In this document: one piece after another, positions 16,902 to 22,826 of the stretch | Layout: each line of letters begins with the position of its first letter | How positions within the stretch are numbered: position 1 is the stretch's first letter | NCBI GenBank assembly: GCA_900317765.1 | Contig: ONID01000024.1 | Coordinates: 1-22,826, forward strand | Source of the DNA: an uncultured Eubacteriales bacterium | GTDB taxonomy: Bacteria; Bacillota; Clostridia; Oscillospirales; Acutalibacteraceae | Length of the DNA stretch: 22,826 nucleotides | Direction of reading: 5' to 3' | Notes under the pieces: model-generated | Database searches by the model: none | What the model saw: only the letters and a program-made list of their open reading frames with translations | Told to the model about the DNA's origin: nothing | Translations under genes and position numbers: made by a program

Positions 16902-17449
16902 TGGCTGTCAGTTCGGCAAAAATCTGGAATAAGTCACTCACGCTCCTCTTCATTTGTATGTTTGCGCTGCTTGCGTTAAGTGCCTGGAGTCAGAAACAAC
17001 GACCGGAAATGAAATTAATTCTGACGTACAGGAAAACGTCAGTTCCGAGTCCGCTGATTCGGTTCATTCGTCTGCGGAGGACAACAAAATGAAAACTGAA
17101 CTAACCATGAAAATCAACGGCGAAACCGTCACTGTTGAATGGGAAGACAACGAATCCGTTTCAGCTTTAAGAGAGCTTGCGTCTGAATCCGATCACAATT
17201 CAGGCGTCACTGTACGGAGGTTTTGAGCAGGTAGGTTTCATCGGTCAGAGCCTTCCGCGCAATGATAAGCGAATTACCACACAGGCGGGAGACATTGTCC
17301 TTTACTCCGGCAATCAGATGGTAGTGTTTTATGGTTCCAATACATGGGCATACACCAGGCTGGGACACATTACGGATAAAACGCCATCTGAACTGACCGC
17401 TCTTTTGGGAAATGATAATGCGACGATTTCGATCAGTATCAATCACTAA
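16901..17449 (+). pseudogene. Cyclophilin-like-fold lipoprotein gene broken by two frameshifts
   Basis: Three frames read LTLLFICMFALLALSA(C) / ESETTTGNE...MKINGETVTVEWEDNESVSALRELASE / ITIQASLYGGFEQVGFIGQSLPRNDKRITTQAGDIVLYSGNQMVVFYGSNTWAYTRLGHI. The breaks lie near 16990 (inside the lipobox Cys codon) and near 17190. Confidence 0.65.
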
Positions 17450-17530
17450 CCGATTCATCTTAGGAACTGTGCAGAATTTAATCCGTCGTTTGTTGCCGAA
17501 AAGCATAGTATCCTTCGTCTTTCTGACGGG

Positions 17531-17857
17531 TTAAAATGTATTAATTATTTCTATATATTCATATTCAAGCTGCAAAATACACCAGATGCCACCACAAAGC
17601 AATCTGTCATACTTCTCAGGATATTCGTTCGAAACATGAATGCCTTTCAATCCAAGATTGGAAAATTCTGCTTCATAGGCATTCTTTTTTATATTCAGAT
17701 TGACTGTTACATTAGCCCCTTCCTTGATTTTTTTCGTAAGGTCTTTGCGAACAATTTTTCCGTCAAAATGCTGACGTAATTTTTCTTTTATTATCTCGCG
17801 GACATTTGCAGACGTGTCTGTTATTTGATCCATCTTTCTTTCCTCCGCTGATATCAA
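17531..17857 (-). pseudogene. brxL: brxL remnant (BREX Lon-like protease; internally deleted and 3'-truncated stub)
   Basis: MDQITD...KLRQHFDGKIVRKDLTKKIKEGANV and ...KKNAYEAEFSNLGLKGIHVSNEYPEKYDRLLCGGIWCILQLEY match the BrxL N-terminal region as I recall it. The ORF is only 108 aa where several hundred are expected. It directly follows and overlaps the pglZ stop, and the likely start is ATG 17833 after GGAGGA. Confidence 0.7.
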
Positions 17858-20469
17858 CTAAAGAATCCGTAATCATCCACCGCAAAGGCAATGTCGATCT
17901 GAAATTCTTCTCGGGATAGCTGTTTTCCCTGCTCATCAACTATGATGAGGTAATATGCTTCGGTGTTGTTGTATGACAGCGGCTTGAGATTGAAGGTGCA
18001 GCGGAAGATGCGCTCATGCACATCGTCGGTGGTCTTATCGGCGATAATCGTGGCGGTATCGCTGACCATCTTTCCATTGCTATCAGTGAAATACGCACGA
18101 CAGGTGGTTGCCACGCGGACGCCGCCGACGGCTTCTTTCTGGTAGAAATCCAGCGAGAATATCATGTTGCATATCTTCCGGCTTGCCGACAGAAGACTAA
18201 CCGTCACCGGCTTGGTATCGTATTGGCTCCTGTTGCGCTTGTATTCTTTGCTGTCGTTGCGCAGGAAGTGGTAATCGATAACAGGCACGACCATTTCCTG
18301 AAGACTGATACCGCCGTGGACAAAATTCAGACCGCCGCCTTTCATCTTGATGCGGATGCTTTCCCTCGGTGCGAAGCCTTCGTATTCGGAGTTGCCGTCG
18401 AGGAATTTTATCGGAAGAAGATACTGCGGCTGTGAGCGTTGATGAAGAAAATGCATGATGGCGTAACGTCTGCCGATTTCGATATCCTGATCGCTCTCGG
18501 TGGATTTGTCAACCTTTTCATCCTCTTTCAAGGGACTGTAGGTGTAGAGGAAGCCGTGGTCGGAAGTAATAATGATATTAACTCCACTAAATTCATTAGT
18601 GATTATTCGTACCAGATTTTTAAGTTCGTCAATTGCCTCGTCACAGGCAGCGAAGATGGACTTGTCGATATGACCCGCTTCGTCGATAGTGTCATGGTAG
18701 ATATAAACGACTTTCTTTCCTTTGATTAGTGGTTGACGTTCGGGTCCTTTCATGTCAATGATGTCCTTGTATTTCAGAGCGACACTCTGGGAATCCGCGC
18801 TTTTAAGAAGCTTGTCGCGGTTGTTTGCCTCGGTGGACTGTCCGTCCGCAAGGACTGCCAGCCGTTCTGTCTTTCCGGATTTCAGTTCAACGGATAATTC
18901 TTTGTGAGGCAGCAGCGCAGCCATGCCGAATTTCGTAATGGTCGGGAATATGCCACAGACGCTGTCGAGCGTCACCTTGCTCTGGGTTTCGCGCCGAAGC
19001 TGCTCGGAGAGTTCCACCGCGACTTCGTATCGCATTGCGTCGGAGATAATGACATACACCTTGCTGTCGGAACGGGCAATTCTGTCGTGGTAGAAATCGC
19101 TCTGTCGCGGTACTTCCAGAATCCGTCCGTAATCCCGCATTTGTTCGGCGCAGACGTCCGACCAGTTTCTGCCGAGTTCTCCGAGGAACCAACCCGAATA
19201 CAAGCCTTCAACCTTTTCCATGACTGTTGCAAAGAGATCAGACAATTCGGAATGATAGGTCTTCAGACTCGCTGCATACGCCTTATGGAATTCCCTGTAA
19301 TAGGTATCCATGACATAATAGGTAGATGTGTATTCCTTCCAGACCTTCTCCGGCAGTGCGTTGTGGAATCCGGCGGCGTGGGTCTTGTAAAAAGCCTGCA
19401 TATTGGCAAGCTGTAAAATGCCTTCATAGAAGTTTTTCAAAGGTTCATACCACACACAAGTGCGCCGCTTTTCCACGGTCTTAGTGATGACGTTCACGTC
19501 AATCAGATGATCGCCGATATCCTTCATCAATTTGATCAGAATGATTTCATGGACACACGGGAATACCTCGGTGCCGAGCAGATCAGATATTTCAAGATTC
19601 ATGAACCGTTTGGGAAGGTTCAACTCATTTTCAAGAAGCTCTGCAATCGAGTGTATGCTTTCGGAATCCTCGCTGTGCATCCATTCTGAGATAAAATCGT
19701 AGCAATACGCCTGATGTGCGGCGGAAATCAAGTCATTCAGCCCCGCAAGATATTCCTGCCGCATGGTTCGCGTAGATGCAGTGAGAAGCAGGTGCGCCGC
19801 CAGCCGTTTCAGATCCGGATGATTAACATCATTTTCAATATAGCCGGAACGCTGCTCCACCATGTGCCAGAATATCTCATCTATTCCGTATTTGATGAAT
19901 TCCTGATAGACTGCATTTTCTTCGATATTCAGACCTTTTTGCAGCACGGATTTAATGACGGCGTTCGGATTGACTGCCTTCAATCCGGCAAGTACCGCCA
20001 TGATAGCCACCTGCAATTGTGACAGCTTGACAGGAACGCACATTGCTGACAACTTGTTCCGGCGCAATTCCGAATTGAAGAATTTGCGATATTTTTTTAT
20101 ACCACTTCGGAGATCAACTGTTTGTGGTATACCCATTTCATCCATCCAGCTGGAAATCCGGTCGGCGCGATAATCTTCGCTGTATAGTTCAATATCCAGC
20201 AGCCAGTTATCCTCCTGCGACTCATAAGCAATCGGGCAGTAAAGAAGATAATCGCTCTCAGTGTCGTCCTTGTTCAGCAGCTTTTTGACATAAAAATAGT
20301 TGTTTCCGGTCAGAGCAACGACTTTCACGCCGTCAATCTGAATCTCGTCTAATCTATCGGTATATTCTCTGTCCTCGTCTTTCCATACGATTATGCGCCG
20401 CTTATAGAATTCCGGCAGCGGTTCCGCAAATCGTCGGGCGAGGTCTTGTTGTATTTTTTCGGTGTCCAT
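17854..20469 (-). CDS. pglZ: BREX type-1 alkaline-phosphatase-superfamily protein PglZ
   Basis: This is an ~870-aa protein containing VVYIYHDTIDEAGH...VNIIITSDHGFLY (PglZ domain). The likely start is MDTEKIQQDL at 20469 after AGGAGA, and the ORF track extends it to 20541. Confidence 0.92.
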   Translation of the reverse strand: MDTEKIQQDLARRFAEPLPEFYKRRIIVWKDEDREYTDRLDEIQIDGVKVVALTGNNYFYVKKLLNKDDTESDYLLYCPIAYESQEDNWLLDIELYSEDYRADRISSWMDEMGIPQTVDLRSGIKKYRKFFNSELRRNKLSAMCVPVKLSQLQVAIMAVLAGLKAVNPNAVIKSVLQKGLNIEENAVYQEFIKYGIDEIFWHMVEQRSGYIENDVNHPDLKRLAAHLLLTASTRTMRQEYLAGLNDLISAAHQAYCYDFISEWMHSEDSESIHSIAELLENELNLPKRFMNLEISDLLGTEVFPCVHEIILIKLMKDIGDHLIDVNVITKTVEKRRTCVWYEPLKNFYEGILQLANMQAFYKTHAAGFHNALPEKVWKEYTSTYYVMDTYYREFHKAYAASLKTYHSELSDLFATVMEKVEGLYSGWFLGELGRNWSDVCAEQMRDYGRILEVPRQSDFYHDRIARSDSKVYVIISDAMRYEVAVELSEQLRRETQSKVTLDSVCGIFPTITKFGMAALLPHKELSVELKSGKTERLAVLADGQSTEANNRDKLLKSADSQSVALKYKDIIDMKGPERQPLIKGKKVVYIYHDTIDEAGHIDKSIFAACDEAIDELKNLVRIITNEFSGVNIIITSDHGFLYTYSPLKEDEKVDKSTESDQDIEIGRRYAIMHFLHQRSQPQYLLPIKFLDGNSEYEGFAPRESIRIKMKGGGLNFVHGGISLQEMVVPVIDYHFLRNDSKEYKRNRSQYDTKPVTVSLLSASRKICNMIFSLDFYQKEAVGGVRVATTCRAYFTDSNGKMVSDTATIIADKTTDDVHERIFRCTFNLKPLSYNNTEAYYLIIVDEQGKQLSREEFQIDIAFAVDDYGFFS

Positions 20470-20544
20470 TTTGAAATGTCTCCTGTTTTTCAATGAATAA
20501 TCAGAAACTGATAACGAAAAAAATTGTAATGATTCACTCAAACA

Positions 20545-21111
20545 TTATGTAACAGATGGAATAACAGGGTTTATTGGAAATTGACCATAATAACTATCTG
20601 CATTCCATTCATTAATACTCATAACACTGACCGAGTCAATAAGTTTCACGCCCGAGGTAAACTGTTCCTGTAGATGAAAAGGAAGACGCTTTTTTAGTCG
20701 ATTTCGTAACATTCGTCTTGACGTGGAATCGCCTTTAGGGTATTCTAATACAAAAATGTATTGTATTGGTTTATCCTTTCCCATCAATCGTAAATAATGA
20801 AGGGAGTCATAATATTTTCTTACAATCTTATTGAATTTATTATTTTCAAATGGATCATATGGTGTTGTGTGATTTGAATGTGCAAGGGCTTCGGCAACAT
20901 TTGCATTTTTGTATTCAATAAGAAGTATATATTCCTCTGTCTCAATCACAAAATCCGCATCAGCCAAAATATCAGGAAGGCCGCAACTGTGATAGATATT
21001 ATGCATTTCGTCACTTGCCCAAATTGCTTTTCCACAGTTTATCCCATATTTATTTTTTTCTTCATACAATATTTGGGGCATTTCTTTTCCCTCACAGATC
21101 ATATATTTCAT
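20545..21111 (-). CDS. Small hypothetical protein with a PD-(D/E)xK nuclease-like motif (partner of the upstream ATPase)
   Basis: GLPDILADADFVIETEEYILLIEYKN reads as P-D ... E-x-K on alternating beta-strand-like segments. I recognise no family. Start options are 21111 or 21102 (overlapping the ATPase 3' end) or 21081 (SD GAGGGA, 10 nt after the ATPase stop). The gene is very AT-rich. Confidence 0.7.
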   Translation of the reverse strand: MKYMICEGKEMPQILYEEKNKYGINCGKAIWASDEMHNIYHSCGLPDILADADFVIETEEYILLIEYKNANVAEALAHSNHTTPYDPFENNKFNKIVRKYYDSLHYLRLMGKDKPIQYIFVLEYPKGDSTSRRMLRNRLKKRLPFHLQEQFTSGVKLIDSVSVMSINEWNADSYYGQFPINPVIPSVT

Positions 21112-22120
21112 CCAACAGCTTATTAAATGCTGTTATGATTGGATTGTTTTTTAAATCAGCAAATCTATCTGTTTTTTCATATTGAATATTATTATCGTTT
21201 CCATTGCGTGATAAAGAGTGGAATACAATACTGTCTTCTAAAGATTTTTTTACCTCAAAATAGCTTGCAATCATATAATCATGTGTTGAAATAAAAACTT
21301 GAACTCCTCTACGTTGTAATTCCAGAAGCATTTCAACAATAATCGAAAGGTATGTTGGGTTAATGTTTGCTTCTGGTTCATCCCAAAATAGAATTGACCC
21401 GTTTTCCAACGTTCCATTTTTTACTAACTGCCACAATAACGCCATTTTACGAATACCTTCAGCAATAAGGTTAAATTCTTGCTTGGAATTGCCACTTTTC
21501 AAGTAAAACTCATCACGTTTCTCGTCATACCAAACCGTACCATGCGTCATTTCTTGAATTCTTTTCAACATAGCTTCTTTTGTGGTATTATTTCTGCCTA
21601 CAGAAATATCAATCTTTGCTGCGTTAATAATATCTAAGTATGTGTCATCAAAGCGAACATTGTTTTTTTCTGTTGCGGCACTTAAATTATAACTGTGAGA
21701 CAATATTTCTTTTGCAGGAATAAAGATACTGCTAACACCTGAAAATGAGTCTTCCCATCCACTTTCTCCGGTTACCTCCGCTTCCCATTTTTTTGTTTTT
21801 CCATGAAAAGAGGCAGTTAATACACGATCTTGAGATGATTCTTTTTCTCCTGCTGTTATCCGAATCATTGCACTGTGATTACCTTGACGTCTCGTAATTA
21901 ATCTTGAAATTTTATAATCATCGGGGAGCATAGTTAAAACTAATTTATGAGGAAATGAAATCTTTGGATCGACACTTTGACATGCTGAATATAAGGCTTT
22001 TAGAAGATGTGTTTTACCCGTTCCATTTTCTCCAATAATTACATTTATTCCTGTTCCGAATTCAATACTAATATTTTCAAAAACAGTGTAGTTTTCAAAT
22101 TTTATTTTTTTAATTATCAT
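21092..22120 (-). CDS. Compact ABC-type (AAA_15/AAA_21-like) ATPase
   Basis: Walker A GENGTGKT (K36), signature-like NLIAEGIRKMA, Walker B ILFWDEPE and H-loop ISTHD are present. It is 342 aa with no coiled-coil insert. SD AAGAGGTG is present, and the start lies 15 nt after the pglX stop. Confidence 0.88.
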   Translation of the reverse strand: MIIKKIKFENYTVFENISIEFGTGINVIIGENGTGKTHLLKALYSACQSVDPKISFPHKLVLTMLPDDYKISRLITRRQGNHSAMIRITAGEKESSQDRVLTASFHGKTKKWEAEVTGESGWEDSFSGVSSIFIPAKEILSHSYNLSAATEKNNVRFDDTYLDIINAAKIDISVGRNNTTKEAMLKRIQEMTHGTVWYDEKRDEFYLKSGNSKQEFNLIAEGIRKMALLWQLVKNGTLENGSILFWDEPEANINPTYLSIIVEMLLELQRRGVQVFISTHDYMIASYFEVKKSLEDSIVFHSLSRNGNDNNIQYEKTDRFADLKNNPIITAFNKLLDEIYDL

Positions 22121-22135
22121 TTATCACACCTCTTA

Positions 22136-22351
22136 TTATTTTATCTTTGCCAATACATCCTTAAATAATTCATAATTCACCTTCACGCCGTCGTCCAGAT
22201 CAATCGGAATCATCATATCGGCGAGGTGATGAATCTTTTCTTCGTAGGCGCGCAGCTCGTCTGCCTGTGCCTGCATCGCGGAAAGCTGCTTGTTGAGCCT
22301 GACCTTCTCCGCAGTGGACGCGCCGGAAATGCGTTTTTCGAGGTCAGCCAT
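22136..22351 (-). CDS. pglX: C-terminal fragment of the BREX methyltransferase PglX (separate frame)
   Basis: ...[40 protein letters not shown] is the conserved PglX C-terminus. It is readable contiguously with the upstream ORF only after a frame change near 22352-22370. Confidence 0.8.
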
Positions 22352-22826
22352 CGCCGAGCGGTAACGGGTGGAGGTAAATCAGGCACTTGAAACCGTTCTT
22401 TTTGCCGCTGTCAAAGAGCCAGTAGATCGGGCGTTTCTGGTAGATTTTGCAATGGTCGGCAAAGAAATCATTGATGAAATAATTGCGGATAATTTCCCTC
22501 GGAGATTTAGCCGTTAGCCGTTGGCTGTTAGCCGTTAGCGCGGTTGCAATGAATTTCAGGTTTTCTTCCAGCGTTTCCCGACCGTAGACCGTTTCAATAA
22601 ATTTGACGAACAGCGTCACAATATCGTCCTCAAAATATTCATCGTCCGTAATCGGGAGAATGCCGTCTTTGTCCGGCTGGAACGTGACATATTTGGAAGA
22701 ATCCCACTCGCCTCCCGCATAAGCTAAACCGTCCACATCGAGCGAATACCGCCCGAACATACAGCCCACCGCGTAGGAAATCAGGGATTTTATTTCGCGC
22801 TGCAAATCCGCCTTGCGGACGGTCAC
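22344..22826 (-). CDS. pglX: BREX adenine methyltransferase PglX, C-terminal region (5' end off-window; terminated by a frame break)
   Basis: [28 protein letters not shown]...EYFEDDIV...[25 protein letters not shown] is followed by out-of-frame PLPLGDG*. Shifting one nucleotide at CACCCG gives [14 protein letters not shown]..., continuing into ORF 22136..22351. Confidence 0.85.
22507..22541 (-). repeat. Imperfect tandem heptanucleotide repeat inside pglX
   Basis: The plus strand reads TTAGCCG TTAGCCG TTGGCTG TTAGCCG TTAGCGC (5 units, 3 of them perfect). It encodes [13 protein letters not shown]. Confidence 0.7.

What the first reader, a model, noticed from the sequence alone, without database searches (positions are those of the whole stretch)
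20545..22120. Intact AT-rich ABC-ATPase + PD-(D/E)xK-like gene pair between pglX and pglZ of a decaying BREX locus: candidate undescribed defence module
Seen in sequence:
- Two minus-strand genes fill the pglX-pglZ gap. The ATPase ATG lies 15 nt after the pglX stop. The partner either overlaps the ATPase stop or follows it by 10 nt. pglZ starts 75 nt further on.
- The 342-aa protein has a complete ABC-type motif set (GENGTGKT, ILFWDEPE, ISTHD) without an SMC-like coiled coil.
- The 178-188-aa partner carries a textbook-looking PD...ExK arrangement (LPDILADADFVIETEEYILLIEYK).
- Hand counts of sampled 60-nt lines give about 23-33% G+C in the cassette versus about 53% in pglZ, so it looks horizontally inserted.
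- Both genes are intact, while the surrounding BREX genes are broken (pglX split, brxL a stub).

Established knowledge: the pglX-pglZ junction of type-1 BREX is a known landing site for other defence genes, for example PARIS-type ATPase+nuclease pairs and BrxU. ATPase+nuclease pairs (Septu PtuAB, PARIS AriAB, Gabija, Lamassu) are a recurrent anti-phage architecture.

Inference: this is a Septu/PARIS-like sensor-ATPase plus effector-nuclease pair that uses a small PD-(D/E)xK-type effector. I cannot place it in a named family.
Basis: partly seen in the sequence, partly recalled or inferred. Interest (0 to 1): 0.88.

Follow-up and report, generated by a model that had tools for sequence, protein, structure and literature searches.

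The report
Known HEC-02 defence pair inside BREX
The two AT-rich genes between pglX and pglZ are real and intact, but they are not a new defence module: they belong to HEC-02, an ABC-ATPase plus NERD-like nuclease anti-phage system that is already catalogued, already tested experimentally, and already known to sit inside BREX loci.

Summary
Two co-oriented minus-strand genes fill the pglX-pglZ gap: a 342-aa ATPase (21092-22120) and a partner (20545-21081, most likely 178 aa). Spacers are 15, 10 and 75 nt. The cassette has 33% G+C against 48% in pglZ.

PADLOC profiles match both proteins over their full length: HEC-02A at E 1.3e-123 and HEC-02B at E 4.4e-68. Payne et al. (bioRxiv 2024.01.29.577857) described HEC-02 as an ABC ATPase plus a NERD-like PD-(D/E)xK nuclease. 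They showed that a Dickeya pair protects E. coli from phages and that both genes are required. A 2026 NAR survey reports OLD-type ABC ATPases paired with PD-(D/E)xK nucleases inside BREX loci of hundreds of taxa.

My own checks agree:
- The pair is adjacent in about 70 of 73 informative related loci.
- About 1 locus in 10 lies in the same pglX-pglZ gap.
- The partner folds confidently and keeps an invariant acidic residue...ExK...K core.
- The ATPase fold is closest to PtuA, Rad50 and SMC heads.

How HEC-02 senses phage remains unknown. Verdict: ordinary, already known.

The parts
21092..22120 (-). HEC-02A: 342-aa ABC-type ATPase. Motifs: Walker A K36, Walker B D247/E248, H-loop H280. Residues ~138-215 form a poorly modelled variable insert.
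   Evidence: ORF. PADLOC HEC-02A PDLC04213, E 1.3e-123, full length. Pfam AAA_21 at 1.3e-19 and AAA_15 at 1.1e-15. AF2 model pLDDT 70.7, pTM 0.78. Foldseek top hits are PtuA, retron Eco8, Rad50 and SMC heads at E ~1e-12 to 1e-13. 29% identical (E 2e-44) to the validated Dickeya HEC-02A.
20545..21081 (-). HEC-02B: 178-aa NERD-like PD-(D/E)xK nuclease partner. An alternative upstream ATG at 21111 would give 188 aa and overlap the ATPase stop. Core residues in 178-aa numbering: D43, E56, K58, K89.
   Evidence: PADLOC HEC-02B PDLC04226, E 4.4e-68. Invariant residues. AF2 pLDDT 92.3, pTM 0.88. Foldseek top hits are PD-(D/E)xK nucleases, but weak: best E 6.5e-3, TM ~0.33. Pfam NERD is sub-threshold at E 0.092 but spans the profile. 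hhalign to the Dickeya HEC-02B gives probability 95%.
17854..20469 (-). pglZ (BREX-1 phosphatase PglZ type A), 871 aa from the ATG at 20469. The mechanical ORF extends to 20541.
   Evidence: TIGR02687 at 597.7 bits against a cutoff of 270. PADLOC PglZ E 6.6e-275, profile starting at residue 25. Called as 871 aa in sibling contigs.
22136..22826 (-). C-terminal part of pglX, cut by the window end and broken by a frameshift near 22351-22366. The frameshift is a 59-nt deletion relative to contig L002.
   Evidence: PADLOC and NCBIfam PglX hits on both pieces. Alignment to L002 shows the 59-nt gap.
17531..17833 (-). brxL N-terminal stub (~100 aa of a ~680-aa protein). The rest of brxL is absent.
   Evidence: Pfam BrxL_N at 4.2e-19. 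PADLOC BrxL matches only profile positions up to ~149 of 680. The same stub is present in all six near-identical contigs.

Best explanation
The cassette is a Clostridia-type member of the HEC-02 anti-phage system: an ABC ATPase (HEC-02A) followed by a small NERD-like PD-(D/E)xK nuclease (HEC-02B). It was acquired horizontally and is embedded between pglX and pglZ of a type 1 BREX locus.

Proposed working, by analogy with Septu, PARIS and Gabija and following Payne et al.: the ATPase, probably as an oligomer bound to the nuclease, acts as the infection sensor through its variable inserts (here residues ~138-215). On sensing, it licenses or releases the nuclease, whose D43/E56/K58/K89 site cuts nucleic acid and stops phage replication.

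Shown by others: a homologous pair gives a defence phenotype, and both genes are required.
Shown here: family membership, conserved pairing, the folds and the conserved catalytic residues.
Inferred only: the trigger, the role of ATP, the substrate, and whether the outcome is abortive infection. Also inferred: the module acts on its own rather than as a BREX subunit.
For: - Full-length PADLOC matches: HEC-02A at E 1.3e-123 and HEC-02B at E 4.4e-68. All 47 diverse partner ORFs hit HEC-02B profiles.
- Literature: HEC-02 is an ABC ATPase plus NERD protein, it defends E. coli against BASEL phages, and both genes are required. The tested pair comes from Dickeya dianthicola.
- Homology to that tested pair: ATPase 29% identical, E 2e-44, same length. 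The partner family profile aligns to Dickeya HEC-02B with probability 95%, and the D...ExK residues align.
- Gene-pair conservation: a HEC-02B-like ORF lies directly downstream of the ATPase in 68 of 80 loci. Seven failures are contig ends and two more carry remnants, so the count is about 70 of 73. These loci span Bacillota, Proteobacteria, Bacteroidota and Planctomycetota.
- Folds: the partner model has pLDDT 92.3 and its top PDB matches are almost all PD-(D/E)xK nucleases. The ATPase is closest to PtuA, Rad50 and SMC heads.
- Invariant E56, K58 and K89, with position 43 always acidic.
- Autonomy: only 6 of 72 upstream neighbours are PglX and 4 of 71 direct downstream neighbours are PglZ.
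- Foreign origin: 33% against 48% G+C, GC3 23-26% against 58-62%.
Against: - The window pair is distant from the only tested representative (29% identity for the ATPase, and the partner is recognisable only by profile). Activity of this particular pair is therefore extrapolated.
- The partner's similarity to solved nucleases is weak (best Foldseek E 6.5e-3, TM ~0.33), and the Pfam NERD match is below the gathering threshold (13.7 against 22.1 bits).
- No nuclease activity has been shown for any HEC-02B in the papers I could read.
- No complex prediction could be run.
Confidence: 0.88

Rival explanations
1. The pair is a BREX accessory or 'backup effector'. It acts together with BREX, for example firing when BREX is inhibited by a phage anti-restriction protein, or substituting for the missing BrxL. 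It is not an autonomous system.
For: - It sits inside the operon with 15-nt and 75-nt spacers.
- The same pglX-pglZ position recurs in loci whose ATPases are only 41-79% identical: L007, L008, L046, L049, L060, L065, L074.
- The NAR 2026 survey proposes OLD-ABC plus nuclease dyads as a backup layer of BREX.
- brxL is truncated in every sibling contig, while the cassette is strictly conserved.
Against: - About 90% of related loci are not next to BREX genes.
- The Dickeya pair protects E. coli when cloned as the candidate system with its native promoter region.
- Payne et al. selected candidates that also occur outside hma loci, expecting them to work independently.
- The foreign G+C content argues for a self-contained mobile module.
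Confidence: 0.15
2. It is an undescribed defence family, a Septu/PARIS-like pair with a new effector.
For: The partner has no Pfam or NCBIfam hit above threshold, and no source gives it a name.
Against: - Both proteins match PADLOC HEC-02 models over their full length.
- The system is published and tested.
- The BREX-embedded cassette class was explicitly merged into the HEC-02 model (supplementary file 8).
- PtuA and AriA profiles match only generic P-loop and ABC segments.
Confidence: 0.03
3. It is a toxin-antitoxin or addiction-type module (Pfam labels AAA_21 'putative AbiEii toxin') that merely stabilises the island and has no role in phage defence. Alternatively it is a non-functional remnant.
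For: The Pfam AAA_21 description, and the surrounding BREX genes being damaged.
Against: - Both ORFs are intact and keep all catalytic residues.
- The cassette differs by 0-2 nt per gene across six contigs.
- A family member has a demonstrated anti-phage phenotype.
- The AAA_21 name is a legacy label for a generic ABC ATPase domain.
Confidence: 0.04

Closest known systems
HEC-02 (Hma-embedded candidate 02; Payne, Hughes, Fineran & Jackson, bioRxiv 10.1101/2024.01.29.577857; PADLOC-DB v2)
   Same: Two co-oriented genes in the same order. The ATPase is a 342-aa ABC ATPase without a coiled coil. The partner is a ~170-180-aa NERD-like PD-(D/E)xK protein with a (D/E)...ExK motif. Both match the profiles over their full length, and the pair is embedded in a multi-gene defence locus.
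   Different: The host is a Clostridia-type gut bacterium rather than Dickeya. The ATPase is only 29% identical to the tested one, and the partner belongs to a different HEC-02B sub-profile. It is embedded in BREX-1 rather than Hma. This particular pair is untested.
OLD-ABC ATPase + PD-(D/E)XK REase dyads embedded in BREX loci (NAR 2026, PMC12839542)
   Same: An ABC ATPase paired with a standalone PD-(D/E)xK nuclease inside the core BREX locus, proposed there to be a backup or suicidal effector layer.
   Different: That work is a comparative-genomic class covering 594 taxa with HNH, REase or PIN partners. I did not verify that this exact subfamily is in their data. By fold, my ATPase model matched PtuA, Rad50 and SMC heads first. 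I did not test its assignment to the OLD clade.
Septu (PtuA/PtuB), including the retron I-A effectors
   Same: An ABC ATPase plus a small nuclease encoded directly downstream. PtuA is the closest solved fold (E ~1e-12, TM 0.55-0.59).
   Different: PtuB is an HNH nuclease, whereas here the partner is PD-(D/E)xK. PtuA profiles match only the N-terminal P-loop segment (NCBIfam PtuA 36 bits against a cutoff of 500).
PARIS (AriA/AriB)
   Same: An ABC ATPase sensor plus a separate nuclease effector, often found inside or beside restriction-type loci.
   Different: AriB is a TOPRIM (DUF4435) nuclease that cleaves tRNA. The AriA sequence match is weak (PDB AriA E ~9e-4, C-terminal segment only). The PADLOC AriA hit (PDLC02980) has almost the same coordinates as the generic Pfam AAA_21 hit.
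NERD domain proteins (Pfam PF08378)
   Same: The only Pfam hit to the window partner aligns residues 27-109 to profile positions 21-107 of 111, covering D43, E56, K58 and K89. Payne et al. superposed HEC-02B on a NERD model.
   Different: The score is below the gathering threshold (13.7 against 22.1 bits, E 0.092). Only 2 of 47 family members hit NERD at all.

Membership tests
HEC-02 | ATPase matches a HEC-02A profile over its full length | tested here: met
   PDLC04213, E 1.3e-123, residues 1-340 against profile 1-330 of 337.
HEC-02 | Partner matches a HEC-02B profile over its full length | tested here: met
   PDLC04226, E 4.4e-68, residues 11-183 against profile 1-167 of 171. The 178-aa form gives E 3.6e-68.
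HEC-02 | The two genes are adjacent, co-oriented and in the order A then B, and this pairing is conserved | tested here: met
   The spacer in the window is 10 nt. A partner lies directly downstream in 68 of 80 related loci, or about 70 of 73 once contig ends and remnants are accounted for.
HEC-02 | A is an ABC-clade ATPase, not AAA+ | tested here: met
   Pfam AAA_21, AAA_15, AAA_23 and SMC_N. Foldseek gives PtuA, Rad50 and SMC heads at E ~1e-12, probability 1.00. Model pLDDT is only 70.7, with the insert at 138-215 unreliable.
HEC-02 | B is a NERD-like PD-(D/E)xK protein with a (D/E/Q)xK motif | tested here: met
   The motif is met: E56-x-K58 is invariant, position 43 is always D or E, and K89 is invariant. 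The fold evidence only supports it: top PDB hits are PD-(D/E)xK nucleases but weak (E 6.5e-3, TM 0.33), and Pfam NERD is sub-threshold.
HEC-02 | Homology to the experimentally validated Dickeya dianthicola pair | tested here: met
   ATPase 29% identical, E 2e-44. The partner family profile against Dickeya HEC-02B (first 133 aa only) gives hhalign probability 95%, E 4e-8.
HEC-02 | Anti-phage phenotype that requires both genes | not testable with these tools
   Shown only for the Dickeya representative (Figure S3).
Septu (PtuAB) | Full-length PtuA ATPase plus an HNH nuclease PtuB | tested here: not met
   PADLOC PtuA hits cover only residues 1-93. NCBIfam PtuA scores 36 bits against a cutoff of 500. 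The partner matches no PtuB/HNH profile in PADLOC and has no Pfam or NCBIfam hit at E <= 0.01.
PARIS (AriAB) | AriA ATPase plus a TOPRIM/DUF4435 AriB | tested here: not met
   The AriA profile PDLC02980 (E 1.6e-21) has almost the same coordinates as the generic Pfam AAA_21 hit and is 100 orders of magnitude weaker than HEC-02A. The partner has no TOPRIM hit.
Gabija / Lamassu | GajA with a fused TOPRIM plus the GajB helicase; or LmuB, an SMC with a coiled coil, plus LmuA | tested here: not met
   GajA hits cover only the first ~45-117 residues. The protein is 342 aa with no long helices. No helicase or LmuA gene lies in the gap.
BREX type 1 (host locus) | brxA-brxB-brxC-pglX-pglZ-brxL, all intact | tested here: not met
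   PglZ type A is intact (597.7 bits against a cutoff of 270). pglX is frameshifted in the window by a 59-nt deletion. brxL is only a ~100-aa stub. brxA, brxB and brxC lie outside the window but are present in sibling contig L001.

The most novel reading that the evidence does not exclude
In this lineage the HEC-02 pair may no longer be an independent passenger and may have been co-opted into BREX. brxL is truncated in every strain seen. The cassette is nucleotide-identical between strains whose pglZ and pglX alleles differ by up to 17-27%. So the ATPase-nuclease pair might supply the effector or ATPase function that BrxL normally provides, giving a hybrid BREX-HEC-02 system. It might also serve as a conserved homology anchor around which pglX and pglZ specificity alleles are exchanged.
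Probability: 0.06. Interest if true: 0.6.

Novelty: already known. Interest (0 to 1): 0.14.

Why it matters
As a discovery it matters little. Running PADLOC on this contig would label the pair HEC-02 automatically, and both the family and its habit of nesting in BREX loci are in the literature.

It has modest value in three ways:
1. It is a clean, intact gut-Clostridia example of HEC-02, very distant from the only tested representative (29% identity). Testing it would show whether the family's function holds across phyla.
2. The mechanism of HEC-02 is still open: trigger, role of ATP, nuclease substrate. The invariant residues mapped here give precise mutagenesis targets: K36, D247/E248 and H280 in the ATPase; D43, E56, K58 and K89 in the partner.
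3. The strain comparison shows an invariant cassette between diverging pglX and pglZ alleles, a small natural experiment on how embedded modules and their host systems evolve.

Tried and rejected
- Pfam and NCBIfam on the partner gave nothing above threshold. A permissive Pfam scan of 47 members gave only a sub-threshold NERD hit in 2 of them.
- A profile search of the partner family against PDB sequences returned only spurious ribosomal protein L20 matches, E 0.05-0.35.
- Plain tblastn with the window partner found it in only about 30 of 80 loci. This was a sensitivity problem: an iterated HMM on the downstream ORFs raised the count to 68.
- The promoter/terminator scan of 17300-22826 was no better than shuffles (16 found against 12.5 expected; 5 against 5.8), so it says nothing about transcription units.
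- Septu, PARIS, Gabija and Lamassu membership was considered and rejected.
- Carriage on mobile elements was checked. Only 2 unannotated phage-like faecal contigs and 9 plasmids carry distant ATPase homologues at 28-40% identity. One of these, a Methylomonas plasmid, has the homologue next to brxC. The family is therefore not typically phage- or plasmid-borne.
- No mechanistic follow-up on HEC-02 was found in the paper library.
- I did not identify the host species. The related loci are mostly Lachnospiraceae and other Clostridia.
Full report

Yes. The ORF list shows a 342-aa ORF at 21092-22120(-) and a 188-aa ORF at 20545-21111(-). They lie between a PglZ ORF (17854-20541) and two PglX C-terminal pieces (22136-22351 and 22344-22826).

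Reading the minus strand confirms each junction:
- The pglX stop TAA is at 22136-22138, followed by 15 nt containing AAGAGG, then the ATPase ATG at 22120.
- The ATPase stop TGA is at 21092-21094, followed by 10 nt preceded by GAGGG, then an ATG at 21081.
- The partner stop is at 20545, followed by 75 nt, then the pglZ ATG at 20469, which is preceded by AGGAGA.

The shorter 178-aa form of the partner is the better call. Most homologues are 178 aa. The PADLOC profile begins at residue 11 of the long form. The 178-aa form is the one held under NCBI as a source.

The cassette has 33.2% G+C, against 47.9% for pglZ, 49.3% for the pglX tail and 48.4% for the window. GC3 is 23-26% against 58-62%.

**2. 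What is it?**

Profile searches settle this quickly. Against PADLOC-DB v2, the ATPase matches HEC-02A (PDLC04213) at E 1.3e-123 over residues 1-340. The partner matches HEC-02B (PDLC04226) at E 4.4e-68.

All other defence ATPase profiles (AriA, GajA, PtuA, mad3, NsnB) are at least 100 orders of magnitude weaker. Most of them cover only the N-terminal P-loop segment. Pfam sees only generic ABC-type domains in the ATPase (AAA_21, AAA_15, AAA_23, SMC_N) and nothing in the partner. NCBIfam has nothing above cutoff for either protein.

**3. What is known about HEC-02?**

Payne, Hughes, Fineran and Jackson (bioRxiv 10.1101/2024.01.29.577857) found HEC-02 as a cassette nested in Hma systems. They describe it as an ABC ATPase plus a NERD-like PD-(D/E)xK protein. 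They cloned one representative into E. coli and saw protection against BASEL phages, and both genes were required.

The tested pair is from Dickeya dianthicola NCPPB 3534: WP_024108366.1 (a 1029-nt gene, 342 aa) and WP_024108365.1 (a 510-nt gene, about 169 aa).

[quoted passage not shown] Its supplementary cassette table lists a cassette class from that survey (CAS_00063, listed with the number 347) marked 'Incorporate into HEC-02 model'.

A 2026 NAR survey of BREX (PMC12839542) independently reports OLD-type ABC ATPases paired with HNH, PD-(D/E)XK or PIN nucleases inside BREX loci of 594 taxa. It interprets them as a backup effector layer.

So the family, its phenotype and its BREX embedding are all published. 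I found no mechanistic or structural follow-up on HEC-02.

**4. Independent checks of membership**

*Homology to the tested pair.* The window ATPase is 29% identical to Dickeya HEC-02A (E 2e-44) and has the same length. A profile of 47 diverse partners aligns to the available 133 residues of Dickeya HEC-02B with hhalign probability 95%. That alignment puts Dickeya's D...ExK (MDVVYID...LIEVKD) on the window's D43...E56-x-K58.

*Pairing.* A scan of one genome per species returned 80 loci with ATPase relatives at 37-80% identity. They are mostly Lachnospiraceae and other Clostridia, but reach into Proteobacteria, Bacteroidota, Planctomycetota and others.
- An iterated HMM finds a HEC-02B-like ORF immediately downstream in 68 loci, with spacers typically 12-50 nt.
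- Seven of the 12 failures are contig ends, and two more carry recognisable remnants.
- All 47 partners I aligned hit HEC-02B profiles.

*Partner fold and active site.*
- AlphaFold2 with 56 sequences gives pLDDT 92.3 and pTM 0.88.
- Foldseek against PDB gives only weak scores (best E 6.5e-3, TM about 0.33). Even so, the top of the list is almost entirely PD-(D/E)xK enzymes: Nt.BspD6I and its small subunit, BstEII, the XPF-like Zip2-Spo16, McrC, Hjc and MUS81.
- The only Pfam match is a sub-threshold alignment to NERD that spans nearly the whole profile (E 0.092).
- Across partners as low as 14% identical, E56, K58 and K89 are invariant and position 43 is always D or E.
- D43 opens a beta-strand, E56-x-K58 lies in the next strand and K89 lies in the following long helix. 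This is the classical arrangement.
It is a chance look-alike.

*ATPase fold.*
- The model has pLDDT 70.7 and pTM 0.78, with residues 138-215 unreliable.
- It matches PtuA (from Septu and retron I-A complexes), retron Eco8, and Rad50 and SMC heads at E about 1e-12 to 1e-13 and TM 0.5-0.6.
- By sequence, PtuA, AriA and Rad50 are only marginal hits, E 1e-5 to 1e-3.
- Walker A, signature-like, Walker B and H-loop residues are invariant in 40 homologues.
- There is no coiled coil.

**5. Context**

About 1 related locus in 10 sits in the same pglX-pglZ gap. Six of 72 nearest upstream genes are PglX. Four of 71 nearest downstream genes are PglZ. In L008 another embedded candidate, PDC-S02, lies between HEC-02 and pglZ. 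These BREX-embedded loci carry ATPases only 41-79% identical to the window's, so the insertion site is reused. The other roughly 90% of loci are not next to BREX genes. That fits an autonomous, mobile module.

The identical ATPase occurs on at least 23 metagenome contigs. One of them, L001, shows the whole locus in this order: brxA, brxB, brxC, pglX, the cassette, pglZ, then the brxL stub.

**6. Is the BREX locus decaying?**

Partly.
- brxL is a roughly 100-aa N-terminal stub in all six sibling contigs.
- From established knowledge of E. coli BREX, brxL is needed for restriction but not for methylation. This locus therefore probably cannot restrict by the canonical route.
- The pglX state varies between strains. 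The window has a 59-nt deletion relative to L002, which has an uninterrupted pglX and is otherwise 100% identical over 11,275 nt.
- L001 has a DUF559 gene splitting pglX, and L003 has two pieces.
- The break in the window lies exactly where several contigs end or switch allele (22366/22367). An assembly join cannot be excluded.

**7. Mechanism**

Best supported: the ABC ATPase acts as infection sensor, with its variable inserts as the recognition surface. It controls a bound PD-(D/E)xK nuclease that cuts nucleic acid once licensed. This is the logic established for Septu, PARIS and Gabija, and Payne et al. propose it for HEC-02.

For a homologue, only the phenotype and the requirement for both genes are shown. 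Family membership, pairing, folds and catalytic residues are shown here. The trigger, the role of ATP, the substrate and the outcome (abortive or not) are inference.

**8. Verdict**

This is an already catalogued and already validated system, in a genomic position where such modules are already known to occur. Interest is low.

Noticed in passing
window 17827-20426 and 22227-22826, compared with L001: Between the window strain and contig L001, the chromosomal flank, the brxL stub and the HEC-02 cassette are about 100% identical; both cassette genes have 0 nt differences. In contrast, pglZ is only 83-98% identical per 200-nt bin, and the pglX C-terminal region is 73-78% identical with indels. 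This looks like allele exchange or diversification of pglX and pglZ around an invariant embedded cassette.
   Followed up: partly
window ~22351-22367 (pglX): There is a 59-nt deletion relative to L002, flanked by imperfect short repeats (CCACCGCTACCG and CACGTTACCGCT), and it frameshifts pglX. Several metagenome contigs end or change allele exactly at 22366/22367. It may be a real microhomology deletion or an assembly join.
   Followed up: partly
L001:8311-8703 (sibling contig, outside the window): In one sibling strain a 130-aa DUF559 gene splits pglX into 882-aa and 433-aa ORFs. The C-terminal piece also carries a long extra insert not present in L002. This is a second, different embedding event within the same BREX locus.
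   Followed up: no
window 17531-17857: The brxL remnant is itself AT-rich (34.3% G+C). Its match to the BrxL profiles falls in two stretches, which suggests an internal deletion as well as the truncation.
   Followed up: no
window 16954-17449 (+): Two overlapping 90-aa plus-strand ORFs (16954-17226 and 17177-17449) look like one gene split by a frameshift. Sibling contigs call either a 108-aa or a 90-aa product here.
   Followed up: no
L008:1772-2899: In a Selenomonas MAG a PDC-S02 candidate (E 1.8e-144; it also matches PADLOC's PD_DExK profile) sits between the HEC-02 pair and pglZ. Two embedded modules are therefore stacked in one pglX-pglZ gap.
   Followed up: no
PADLOC-DB models PDLC04146 and PDLC04145: A model named HEC-02B (PDLC04146) matches the ATPase at E 5.2e-53. 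A model named HEC-02A (PDLC04145) matches four partner proteins. The A and B labels appear to be swapped for one sub-model pair in the database.
   Followed up: no
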